From NCBI RefSeq assembly GCF_006345805.1, contig NC_042998.1, positions 131,688,001 to 131,752,000 of the forward strand: a DNA stretch of 64,000 nt, in the 5' to 3' direction. A model generated the notes under the pieces. The model was not told the origin of the DNA, searched no databases, and was given only the letters and a program-made list of their open reading frames with translations. Source of the DNA: Octopus sinensis (Eukaryota). The position numbers and the translations under genes were made by a program. Below, one piece after another: positions 1,340 through 2,450 of this stretch. Each line of letters opens with the position of its first letter. Position 1 is the first letter of the stretch.

Positions 1340-1566
1340 TAATTAATCAATATAGGGTGGCAAAAAATTTCGTAGAATTTATTTGCCACCAGCGGCCTAG
1401 TGGGAAAAAATTTAATAGTCATAGACCATTTATAAGTTCAACATCACAATCAAGGAATGGCCATAATAGGCCATTCACCCACTAGAAATAACAGCCAAAG
1501 CTTCAACCGCAAAATAACATCAATTCCGCAAACCAGGAGAAAATTAAAAAAACATTTACCCTGTAA

Positions 1567-1671
1567 TTTCTTATACGATGCACCGTTTCATCTATTGTTT
1601 AATGGTAAACTAACCTGATTAAATCAAATCAAGCCAATCTTCCATAGGCCGATAGATTCATCAGTAAGAAA
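1567..1671 (-). ncRNA. Type I hammerhead ribozyme motif, copy 1
   Basis: Reverse complement of the motif at 2190-2294. Confidence 0.78.
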
Positions 1672-2189
1672 CAGCCAAGATCCGAGCAGATATTATCACG
1701 AGGCATCTCTATCCCTGCCTCGGCAATATCTGACCTAAAATTTTCAAATCATCGCACTCGCGCCAAATTTATCGGCAGCAAATATAAGCCGCCGATTCCA
1801 TTACGGAATTAACCAGAAAATTCATAATTAATCAATATAGGGTGGCAAAAAATTTCGTAGAATTTATTTGCCACCAGCGGCCTGTTATTTCTAGTGGGTG
1901 AATGGCCTATTATGGCCATTCCTTGATTGTGATGTTGAACTTATAAATGGTCTATGACTATTTAATTTTTTCCCACTAGGCCGCTGGTGGCAAATAAATT
2001 CTACGAAATTTTTTGCCACCCTATATTGATTAATTATGAATTTTCTGGTTAATTCCGTAATGGAATCGGCGGCTTATATTTGCTGCCGATAAATTTGGCG
2101 CGAGTGCGATGATTTGAAAATTTTAGGTCAGATATTGCCGAGGCAGGGATAGAGATGCCTCGTGATAATATCTGCTCGGATCTTGGCTG

Positions 2190-2294
2190 TTTCTTACTGA
2201 TGAATCTATCGGCCTATGGAAGATTGGCTTGATTTAATTTAATCAGGTTAGTTTACCATTAAACAATAGATGAAACGGTGCATCGTATAAGAAA
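2190..2294 (+). ncRNA. Type I hammerhead ribozyme motif, copy 2, with long stem II loop
   Basis: TTTCTTA-CTGATGA-ATCTAT...(56 nt)...ATAGAT-GAAAC-GGTGCATC-GTA-TAAGAAA: perfect 7-bp stem I, 6-bp stem II, near-palindromic stem III ACGGTGCATCGT, GUA triplet. Confidence 0.8.
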
Positions 2295-2416
2295 TTACAG
2301 GGTAAATGTTTTTTTAATTTTCTCCTGGTTTGCGGAATTGATGTTATTTTGCGGTTGAAGCTTCGGCTGTTATTTCTAGTGGGTGAATGGCCTATTATGG
2401 CCATTCCTTGATTGTG

Positions 2417-2450
<34 letters not shown>

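What the first reader, a model, noticed from the sequence alone, without database searches (positions are those of the whole stretch)
1340..2418. 485-nt hammerhead monomer present as two differently permuted, longer-than-unit inverted copies: footprint of a circular RNA (retrozyme-like) replicon
Seen: the left copy (544 bp) has 59 bp of terminal redundancy and the right inverted copy (537 bp) has 52 bp, both with period 485 but different breakpoints. They join through a 2-nt CT overlap, are nearly identical, and sit in (TA)n. Each monomer has one well-paired hammerhead with an unusually long 56-nt stem II loop, plus a strong hairpin GGTGGCAAA...TTTGCCACC, and no credible ORF. Known: metazoan non-LTR retrozymes are tandem hammerhead monomers that yield circular RNAs and are thought to use Penelope RT. 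Inference: two permutations point to reverse transcription around a circular or multimeric template, possibly an uncharacterised cephalopod family.
Basis: partly seen in the sequence, partly recalled or inferred. Interest (0 to 1): 0.75.

Follow-up and report, generated by a model that had tools for sequence, protein, structure and literature searches.

The report
Hammerhead-bearing tandem retroelement, Penelope-style insertion
This is one insertion of a 485-base non-coding repeat that carries a hammerhead ribozyme motif and occurs in over 2,000 units in this genome; its shape (two head-to-head truncated copies in a TA microsatellite, each ending at a fixed spot) matches the pattern described for Penelope-like retrotransposon insertions, so it is likely a new member of the known animal 'retrozyme' class and is not in itself proof of a circular RNA.

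Summary
In detail: 1340-1883 and 1882-2418 are inverted, longer-than-unit, differently permuted copies of one 485-nt unit, joined by a 2-nt overlap and lying in (TA)n.

The unit belongs to a dispersed family with at least 2,305 units in the 2.72-Gb genome. Rfam misses its hammerhead, but the motif is full and arose in 1 of 20,000 shuffles. All core bases except the free position N7 are near-invariant. Three subfamilies differ by paired compensatory changes in helix I, in helix II and in the self-complementary helix III.

The two permutations need no circular RNA. Across 79 loci, arms have variable 5' ends and only two fixed 3' ends (unit positions ~104 and 485). Each fixed end follows a hairpin, TTGATT and 5 nt, and 88 of 94 ends in the 59-locus census abut (TA)n. 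In 40 of 44 head-to-head pairs one arm has each end type, and no pair has the same type twice. This matches the described Penelope-like insertion pattern: 5' truncation, partial tandems, an inverted 5' copy, a 'tail' at one end, and TA targets.

RT+GIY-YIG elements are abundant here, but no partner was identified and no RNA evidence could be obtained.

Verdict: a new member of the non-LTR retrozyme kind. It has an atypical long-helix-II hammerhead and an informative two-terminus rule.

The parts
1018..1339 (.). Left flank: (TA)n-rich microsatellite, the target of the insertion
   Evidence: 88 of 94 family 3' ends in the 59-locus census are followed by (TA)3 or more within 12 nt.
1340..1883 (-). 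Left arm, 544 nt, hammerhead-sense on the - strand. In unit coordinates (position 1 = window 1934) it is [45..485][1..103]. Its 3' end at 1340 is the family's 'A' terminus.
   Evidence: L001.
1882..2418 (+). Right arm, 537 nt, hammerhead-sense on the + strand: [434..485][1..485]. Its 3' end at 2418 is the family's 'B' terminus.
1882..1883 (.). Head-to-head (5'-to-5') junction with a 2-nt CT overlap
   Evidence: D6 ends at 1883, D7 starts at 1882. 14 of 35 family junctions have a 1-6 nt overlap.
2189..2295 (+). Type-I hammerhead motif of the right arm. Helix I 2189-2196/2288-2295, CUGAUGA 2197-2203, helix II 2204-2209/2266-2271 with its 56-nt extension 2210-2265, GAAA 2272-2275, helix III 2275-2277/2284-2286. 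Predicted cleavage is after A2287.
   Evidence: sequence; fold, z -3.65; pair counts; chance controls.
1566..1672 (-). The same hammerhead motif in the left arm. Predicted cleavage lies between 1574 and 1573 on the - strand.
   Evidence: 100% inverted repeat; read.
2275..2286 (+). ACGGUGCAUCGU, a self-complementary 12-mer. As a dimer it would form 12 pairs, including 2 G-U.
   Evidence: Read. A UGCA-to-UAUA double variant is seen.
1340..1390 (-). 'A' end module: hairpin (1356-1390), CTATA, TTGATT (1345-1350 on the - strand), AATTA, then the end of the element
   Evidence: Internal copies lie at 1825-1875 (-) and 1986-2037 (+).
2385..2418 (+). 'B' end module: hairpin GAATGGCC/GGCCATTC (2385-2406), C, TTGATT (2408-2413), GTGAT, then the end of the element
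   Evidence: B is the second fixed 3' end of the family.
2419..2443 (.). Right flank (TA)n

Best explanation
The window holds one integration of a 485-nt non-coding, hammerhead-bearing tandem-repeat retroelement (an animal non-LTR retrozyme-type element), which was likely copied into a (TA)n microsatellite by the reverse transcriptase/endonuclease of a Penelope-like element.

Shown:
- The family has at least 2,305 units.
- Arms have variable 5' ends and two fixed 3' ends, A (unit position ~104) and B (position 485). Each follows a hairpin, TTGATT and 5 nt.
- Ends abut (TA)n.
- Head-to-head pairs always combine one A arm with one B arm, and the two arms are usually at least 99% identical.
- The hammerhead core is conserved and its helices show compensatory changes between subfamilies.

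Inferred:
- Arrays are transcribed on the hammerhead-sense strand and cut by the ribozyme, probably acting as a dimer through the self-complementary helix III.
- The enzyme of a Penelope-like element would nick both strands of a TA repeat. One DNA end would prime at module A and the other at module B of the same multimeric RNA or of sister RNAs.
- Both cDNAs would run 5'-ward for more than one unit and be joined head to head by microhomology.
- The 104 nt between B and A would be the counterpart of the one-sided 'tail' described for Penelope-like insertions.

Whether the template was a linear multimer or a circle stays open.
For: Family size and spread:
- The unit gave 208 matches from 40 scored of 1,615 candidates.
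- A second subfamily gave 195 matches from 1,294 candidates.
- The 19-mer GATGAAACGGTGCATCGTA occurs 2,305 times, against 0 for the reversed control.

Insertion pattern:
- The 59-locus census found 35 head-to-head pairs, 32 with both 3' ends seen. Of these, 28 are A/B, 0 are A/A, 0 are B/B, and 4 have one odd end.
- 88 of 94 seen 3' ends are followed by (TA)n, and 73 of 92 complete arms exceed 485 nt.
- A second sample of 20 places was taken in list order, not by score. All 12 independent pairs are A/B, and no Penelope-like ORF lies within about 2.3 kb.
- The arms of a pair are at least 99% identical in 26 of 33 pairs.
- Both ends share hairpin + TTGATT + 5 nt.

Hammerhead:
- A full motif arose in 1 of 20,000 shuffles.
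- Among ~187-201 aligned copies per position, the core bases are identical in all but at most one or two, apart from N7 (C 121, A 58, T 8). L114 has G at N7.
- Pair 2196-2288 is AU in 128 copies and GC in 58. Pair 2208-2267 is AU in 128 and GC in 57. Two or more such compensations arose in 73 of 200,000 random placements.
- On 80 distinct rows, 96% of cells are paired. Double changes fill 34 cells against 8.1+-2.2 when shuffled, and at most 5 when slid.
- A third subfamily keeps helix III self-complementary as UAUA.

5' ends: unpaired arms start at positions 362-368, just 3' of helix I and the 354|355 cleavage site, in 6 of 24 cases (expected 0.79, P=1e-4).

Machinery:
- GIY-YIG gave 147 matches of 150 scored, from 5,029 candidates.
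- One ORF carries RVT_1 followed by GIY-YIG.
- Six of 20 sampled loci end '...TTTTTTACAA' directly before (AT)n.

Literature (passages read, PMC8557442): Penelope-like insertions show 5' truncation, partial tandems, an adjacent inverted 5'-truncated copy, a tail at one end and a (TA)n bias.
Against: - No autonomous partner was found. The unit shows no similarity to 20 GIY-YIG loci or to 7 Rfam-hammerhead loci (best E 0.31). The two Penelope-like 3' ends examined do not carry the TTGATT module.
- Rfam's Hammerhead_1 does not score the motif. Helix II opens with an A-U pair, and its sixth pair is not kept (AG in subfamily 2).
- Self-cleavage is untested and no RNA evidence was obtained.
- The compensatory changes amount to only three events between three subfamilies. 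The count of pairs with a double change did not beat the column shuffle (2 against 2.5).
- The 5'-end hot spot lies 7-8 nt from the cleavage site, not at it. It was absent among the 6 unpaired arms of the second sample.
- The published tail is 30-40 bp; here it is 104 nt.
Confidence: 0.72

Rival explanations
1. One reading: the permuted, longer-than-unit copies come from rolling-circle reverse transcription of a 485-nt circular RNA, so the locus is a footprint of a circular replicon.
For: - 73 of 92 complete arms exceed one unit.
- Units within an arm are often 99.6-100% alike, although they differ by 3-6% from other loci.
- Both fixed 3' ends lie away from the predicted cleavage site, so priming is internal, as a circle would require.
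- Known animal retrozymes accumulate as circular RNAs (PMC7229834, abstract and passages).
Against: - The different breakpoints are explained without a circle: two fixed 3' ends and variable 5' ends.
- Unpaired arms show a 5'-end hot spot at 362-368 next to the cleavage site. That implies templates with a defined 5' end, meaning linear RNA.
- In L056 the two arms belong to different subfamilies, so they do not come from one circle.
- Uniform arms can also come from uniform source arrays.
- No hammerhead lies on the opposite strand, so a viroid-like RNA-to-RNA replicon is unlikely.
Confidence: 0.3
2. The copies are merely the terminal repeats (pLTRs) of an ordinary autonomous Penelope-like element, not a separate non-autonomous family.
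For: - Penelope-like insertions are mostly 5'-truncated tails in tandem and inverted form.
- ORF pieces of Penelope-like elements lie within 1.5 kb of 5 of 59 family loci.
Against: - Arms run through up to 7 consecutive 485-nt units without entering any ORF.
- None of the 5 nearby ORF pieces is contiguous with an array. The one checked in detail (L009) is a separate element lying tail to tail in the same (TA)n.
- None of 20 unselected places has an ORF piece of a Penelope-like element within about 2.3 kb.
- The unit shows no similarity to 20 sampled loci of such elements.
Confidence: 0.07
3. An ordinary satellite DNA that spreads and inverts by DNA-level processes (unequal exchange, segmental duplication, fold-back repair), with a hammerhead-like motif that has no function.
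For: - It is tandem and AT-rich (37.3% GC).
- Some loci are plain segmental duplicates (L129-L131; L069).
- Rfam gives no hit.
Against: - Dozens of dispersed loci on many contigs share the same two 3' ends next to (TA)n, have variable 5' ends, and follow a strict A/B rule (40 of 44 pairs). DNA-level spread does not predict this.
- The hammerhead helices show compensatory changes and the core is invariant.
Confidence: 0.05

Closest known systems
Animal non-LTR retrozymes (Cervera & de la Pena 2020, PMC7229834; review PMC7761336; Li, Clavereau & Pollet 2026 preprint, 10.64898/2026.07.22.740005)
   Same: [quoted passage not shown] They are dispersed in many copies, co-occur with Penelope-like elements, and have a weak helix III suited to dimeric cleavage.
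   Different: - The unit is 485 nt, against the 150-450 bp quoted.
- Helix II carries a 56-nt structured extension, so Rfam Hammerhead_1 does not score the motif.
- Expression and circles are not shown here.
- The two fixed 3' ends and the A/B pairing rule do not appear in the passages I read. Only term-matched passages were seen, not whole texts or supplements.
Insertion architecture of endonuclease-positive Penelope-like elements (Craig et al. 2021, PMC8557442, passages read)
   Same: 5' truncation, partial tandems, an adjacent inverted 5'-truncated copy, an extension ('tail') at only one end, and a bias for (TA)n.
   Different: There is no ORF. The repeat unit is 485 nt, not a 3-4 kb element. 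The 'tail' is 104 nt, not 30-40 bp. No sequence is shared with the Penelope-like elements sampled here.
Minimal hammerheads of Penelope-like elements, as found by Rfam in this genome (L031-L037)
   Same: Type-I topology, the CUGANGA...GAAA core, and a short helix III with a palindromic centre.
   Different: Those have a 5-bp helix II with a 4-nt loop and score 34-48 bits. This one has 3 bp plus a 6-nt loop in helix III and a long helix II, and it does not score.
Hammerhead-bearing satellite DNAs (newt satellite 2, Schistosoma, and the pDo500 family of cave crickets; titles seen in the reference list of PMC7761336; details recalled)
   Same: Tandem units of about 330-500 bp whose transcripts carry a type-I hammerhead.
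   Different: Those were described as satellites. Here the dispersed, truncated, inverted copies in TA repeats show retrotransposition.

Membership tests
Animal non-LTR retrozymes | Short tandem repeat unit (quoted as 150-450 bp) present as dimers to multimers | tested here: inconclusive
   The copies are tandem, with arms of up to 7 units. The unit is 485 nt, just above the quoted range.
Animal non-LTR retrozymes | A type-I hammerhead with a full catalytic core in every unit | tested here: met
   The core is complete and near-invariant in 186-201 copies. Helices I and II show compensatory changes.
Animal non-LTR retrozymes | No coding capacity; no LTR | tested here: met
   The longest stop-free stretch in a trimer is 45 aa (+) or 60 aa (-). 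Arms end at A or B directly in (TA)n, with no terminal repeats other than the unit itself. PBS and PPT motifs were not looked for.
Animal non-LTR retrozymes | Low GC (<50%) | tested here: met
   37.3%.
Animal non-LTR retrozymes | Self-cleavage, and accumulation as linear and circular RNA | not testable with these tools
   No run on record as RNA holds the unit. Only contigs could be laid.
Elements mobilised by Penelope-like RT/EN | 5' truncation with a fixed 3' end | tested here: met
   3' ends fall at ~104 or 485, while 5' ends are spread over the unit.
Elements mobilised by Penelope-like RT/EN | Partial tandems plus an adjacent inverted 5'-truncated copy | tested here: met
   35 head-to-head pairs in 59 loci and 12 in 18 independent places.
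Elements mobilised by Penelope-like RT/EN | An extension ('tail') at only one end of the insertion | tested here: met
   40 of 44 pairs have one A end and one B end, so positions 1-104 are present at one end only. The length is 104 nt, against the published 30-40 bp.
Elements mobilised by Penelope-like RT/EN | Insertion bias for a microsatellite | tested here: met
   88 of 94 3' ends are followed by (TA)3 or more.
Elements mobilised by Penelope-like RT/EN | 3' end shared with an autonomous element of the same genome | tested here: not met
   No similarity to 20 GIY-YIG loci. Two families of such elements end differently. Only a small sample of 5,029 candidates was seen, so the partner may simply have been missed.
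Rfam Hammerhead_1 (RF00163) | Score at or above the gathering cut-off (34 bits) | tested here: not met
   No hammerhead match at gathering score or at E<=10. Seven other places in the genome do pass.

The most novel reading that the evidence does not exclude
Each unit carries two entry sites for the reverse transcriptase (hairpin-UUGAUU-N5, 104 nt apart). Every double-ended integration uses one site on each side of the DNA break. That would explain the long-puzzling one-sided 'tail' and the inverted copies of Penelope-like insertions as paired priming at two designated sites. The 5' ends at the edge of helix I would be a genomic record of ribozyme cleavage in vivo. Arrays would then be inserted ready-made, not grown locally.
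Probability: 0.35. Interest if true: 0.7.

Novelty: new member of a known kind. Interest (0 to 1): 0.5.

Why it matters
- It adds a large, young retrozyme-type family to a genome where none appears to be in print. Two full-text searches (retrozyme/hammerhead/octopus, and hammerhead ribozyme + cephalopod) returned only papers that mention these terms in passing. The taxon itself was not checked here.
- Its hammerhead escapes the standard covariance model because of a long helix II. Censuses built on such models or on tight descriptors may therefore undercount retrozymes.
- The copies are many and young, and they show an unusually clean regularity: two fixed ends, always one of each per pair, and arms at least 99% alike. 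This could be turned into a direct test of how the Penelope-like enzyme primes on both DNA ends, which the literature names as unresolved.

Tried and rejected
- Rfam scans found no hammerhead at gathering score or at E<=10.
- RNA evidence: no RNA holder is listed. Runs of four coded organism labels hold words of the unit, but their 'RNA?' label is a guess, and only Logan contigs of about 70-150 nt could be laid. Nothing can be said on expression, RNA ends or circles. The second read-laying run was not used.
- Partner hunt, all negative or uninformative:
  - blastn of the unit against 20 GIY-YIG loci and 7 Rfam-hammerhead loci gave nothing.
  - A scan for TTGATT next to (TA)n gave two leads. 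L106 was read and showed no obvious Penelope-like element. L101 has a private variant: 13 relatives end 'TTTCTTTTCTTT...' instead.
  - A pattern for the same hammerhead with a short helix II gave 0 hits.
  - ORF pieces of Penelope-like elements near family loci are neighbours, not parts of the arrays.
  - No such ORF piece lies within 1.5 kb of the 7 Rfam hammerheads.
- Strand choice by folding was rejected. Both strands fold better than shuffles (z -5.75 and -6.17), so folding does not pick the strand.
- Circle versus multimer from within-arm identity was rejected as undecidable. In 16 of 32 arms the units resemble units elsewhere more than their own arm-mates.
- Earlier findings: nothing by sequence or for this genome.
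- Target-site duplications cannot be read in (TA)n.

Full report
THE OBSERVATION

Window 1340-1883 (544 nt) and 1882-2418 (537 nt) are inverted copies of one 485-nt unit. Each is longer than the unit (59 and 52 nt of redundancy at spacing 485). They match at 100% over 441 nt and 99% over 155 nt, share CT at 1882-1883, and lie in (TA)n.

I set unit coordinates on the hammerhead-sense strand, with position 1 = window 1934 and position 485 = window 2418. The right arm (+) is then [434..485][1..485]. The left arm (- strand) is [45..485][1..103]. The two arms meet by their 5' ends, and both 3' ends point outward.

THE HAMMERHEAD

On the + strand of the right arm, every element of a type-I hammerhead is present:
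- helix I, 2189-2196 with 2288-2295
- CUGAUGA, 2197-2203
- helix II, 2204-2209 with 2266-2271
- GAAA, 2272-2275
- helix III, 2275-2277 with 2284-2286
- GUA ending at 2287

The 56 nt inside helix II are not a loop. They fold into an imperfect extension of that helix (-31.3 kcal/mol, z -3.65).

Rfam does not score the motif at gathering level or at E<=10. It does find seven minimal Penelope-type hammerheads elsewhere in the genome.

Controls:
- A descriptor search found the motif once on the sense strand and never on the other strand. It found a motif in 1 of 20,000 dinucleotide shuffles of the unit.
- Across roughly 187-201 aligned genomic copies, the core bases are identical in all but at most one or two copies. 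The exception is N7, the one position that hammerheads leave free (C 121, A 58, T 8; G in L114).
- Three subfamilies exist. One is the window's own. A second is about 91% identical. A third is about 88-90% identical.
- Between subfamilies, pair 2196-2288 of helix I switches from AU (128 copies) to GC (58), with one intermediate. Pair 2208-2267 of helix II switches from AU (128) to GC (57), with two intermediates.
- The centre of helix III changes from UGCA to UAUA. This keeps ACGGUNNAUCGU self-complementary.
- Random placement of the 32 substitutions that separate a real subfamily-2 copy from the window copy gave two or more compensations among the 17 core pairs in 73 of 200,000 trials.
- On 80 distinct rows, taken from 175 hammerhead regions, 96% of cells pair. 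Double changes fill 34 cells, against 8.1+-2.2 in shuffles and at most 5 in slid controls.

Against:
- These are only three events.
- The number of pairs with a double change (2) did not beat the column shuffle (2.5).
- The sixth helix II pair is not kept (AG in subfamily 2).
- Genome-wide, the UAUA double variant has 7 copies at 4 places, against 26 single variants and 2,305 reference copies. That is more than independent mutation predicts, but it may be a single lineage.

I conclude that the motif was under selection in the lineages that gave rise to the copies. Catalysis itself is untested.

THE FAMILY AND ITS INSERTION PATTERN

The genome (2.72 Gb) holds at least 2,305 units, counted by the 19-mer.

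I mapped the unit on 59 independent loci: 38 of subfamily 1 and 21 of subfamily 2. I dropped loci that overlap another locus of the same array (L003, L006, L008, L012-L014, L022-L025, L030, L058, L070, L072, L074, L075, L078, L081, L083, L084). I also dropped L029, whose array is cut at both ends.

Results:
- 3' ends fall at only two places: A (positions 95-110, mostly 104) and B (positions 482-485).
- 88 of 94 seen 3' ends are followed by (TA)3 or more within 12 nt.
- 5' ends are spread over the unit.
- 73 of 92 complete arms exceed one unit (median 812 nt, maximum 3,002 nt).
- There are 35 head-to-head pairs. Of the 32 with both ends seen, 28 are A/B, none is A/A or B/B, and 4 have one odd end (positions 40, 465, 94 and 76; two of these lie in the complex locus L053).
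- Of 27 unpaired arms, 15 are A and 12 are B. Four of the B arms have a 9-26-nt inverted A stub.

A second sample avoided selection by score. I took 20 places in list order that had a single 19-mer. This gave 18 independent places, because L129-L131 are duplicates. All 12 pairs are A/B, and no ORF piece of a Penelope-like element lies within about 2.3 kb.

Together, 40 of 44 pairs are A/B and none is of one type. The window's pair (A at 1340, B at 2418) is a typical member.

Further details:
- The arms of a pair are at least 99% identical in 26 of 33 pairs (median 99.3%). One clear exception is L056, whose arms belong to different subfamilies.
- Junctions show a 1-6 nt overlap in 14 of 35 cases, are blunt in 4, and have 2-35 nt of filler in 15.
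- Both ends follow the same kind of module. A reads hairpin GGTGGCAAA..TTTGCCACC, CTATA, TTGATT, AATTA, end. B reads hairpin GAATGGCC..GGCCATTC, C, TTGATT, GTGAT, end.
- Other TA-rich patches of the unit, such as UAUAU at 88-92, are not used as ends. Simple annealing of the TA primer therefore does not explain the choice of site.

5' ENDS

Unpaired arms start at positions 362-368 in 6 of 24 cases, after dropping one duplicate of L069 (expected 0.79, binomial P=1e-4). This is the first stretch 3' of helix I (355-361/362). It lies 7-8 nt from the predicted cleavage site 354|355.

Paired arms show no such peak (4 of 70). None of the 6 unpaired arms in the second sample starts there.

A second cluster at 447-454, the 5' base of the B hairpin, is unexplained.

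The first peak would fit cDNAs that run to the end of a ribozyme-cut linear RNA and stop at helix I. A transcription start at that place is an alternative.

MACHINERY

GIY-YIG matches abound: 147 of 150 scored, from 5,029 candidates, with open frames up to 883 aa. One 699-aa frame carries RVT_1 followed by GIY-YIG, the canonical Penelope-like order.

Six of 20 sampled loci end '...TTTTTTACAA' directly before (AT)n, so these elements use the same kind of target.

No partner was found. There is no similarity between the unit and 27 loci. The two 3' ends of Penelope-like elements that I examined lack the module. No hammerhead of this type with a short helix II exists. ORF pieces of Penelope-like elements within 1.5 kb of 5 of 59 family loci are neighbours, not parts of the arrays.

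COMPARISON WITH WHAT IS KNOWN

- Craig et al. 2021 (PMC8557442, passages) describe, for Penelope-like insertions, heavy 5' truncation, partial tandems, an adjacent inverted 5'-truncated copy, a 30-40-bp tail at one end only, and a (TA)n bias. They call the mechanism undefined.
- Cervera & de la Pena 2020 (PMC7229834, abstract and passages) and their review (PMC7761336, passages) define animal non-LTR retrozymes. These are 150-450-bp low-GC tandem repeats with type-I hammerheads. [quoted passage not shown]
- Li et al. 2026 (preprint; abstract and passages) derive vertebrate retrozymes from pLTRs and propose local amplification of arrays.

The present family meets the structural features of both sets. 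The exceptions are unit length (485 nt), the Rfam score, a shared 3' end with a partner, and the RNA properties, which could not be tested.

None of the passages I read mentions two fixed ends or an A/B rule. I did not read whole texts or supplements, so this may be in print.

Searches for retrozyme/hammerhead with octopus or cephalopod returned no description of such a family. I did not determine the taxon.

Earlier notes of this scan (unchecked) report look-alike non-coding tandem units in TA microsatellites in other genomes. They also report one case that proved to be an ordinary tail of a Penelope-like element. That case made me test this rival explicitly.

VERDICT

The retrozyme-like reading is supported, but the argument from 'two permutations' to a circular template is not: fixed ends and variable 5' ends explain them.

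The most likely mechanism is paired, target-primed reverse transcription of hammerhead-sense multimeric RNA at two designated sites by the enzyme of a Penelope-like element. The pattern is shown. The enzyme, the RNA form and the catalysis are inferred.

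Noticed in passing
window 34683-54615: An rDNA-like stretch. 5.8S lies at 34683-34841. An LSU match covers model positions 1-3401 but spans 9.8 kb (35328-45157, 62% GC) with very long insertions. SSU lies in four pieces at 52446-54615, also with long GC-rich insertions.
   Followed up: no
window 5121-5192 (-): A tRNA match of 60.4 bits.
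   Followed up: no
window 1301-1313 and 2437-2449: ATATATTTACGCC to the left and ATATATTTACCCC to the right of the insertion. This may be a long target-site duplication, with 26 nt of TA-rich filler between the left copy and the A end, or it may be chance in TA-rich DNA.
   Followed up: partly
unit positions 447-454 (window 2380-2387); loci L015, L050, L054, L061, L065, L080, L118: A second cluster of 5' ends at the 5' base of the B hairpin. Such copies begin with a complete B module followed by full units. Unexplained.
   Followed up: partly
L056 1420-2887: A head-to-head pair whose A arm is subfamily 1 and whose B arm is subfamily 2 (best arm-to-arm identity 93.5%). The two arms of one insertion can therefore come from different RNAs, or two insertions abut.
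   Followed up: partly
L031-L037 (e.g. L034 636-1830; L036 801-1709): Seven Rfam-scoring minimal hammerheads of the Penelope type. One lies in a 1.2-kb, 99% palindrome, and two lie in a direct repeat 430 nt apart. No ORF piece of a Penelope-like element lies within 1.5 kb.
   Followed up: partly
G000, many contigs (one search list): Dozens of GIY-YIG matches share an identical score, with open frames of 781 aa at several places. This suggests a recently active Penelope-like family. Its 3' untranslated region holds CAC/CTA-rich repeats.
   Followed up: no
L129, L130, L131 (contig 1, 81.88-82.15 Mb): Three copies of the same small A/B pair with the same flanks: a segmental duplication that carried the insertion along.
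   Followed up: no
runs X1-X19: Runs under four coded organism labels hold near-identical words of the unit, so the family is shared by several labels (species or strains). The variants seen in the contigs match the subfamilies found in the genome.
   Followed up: partly
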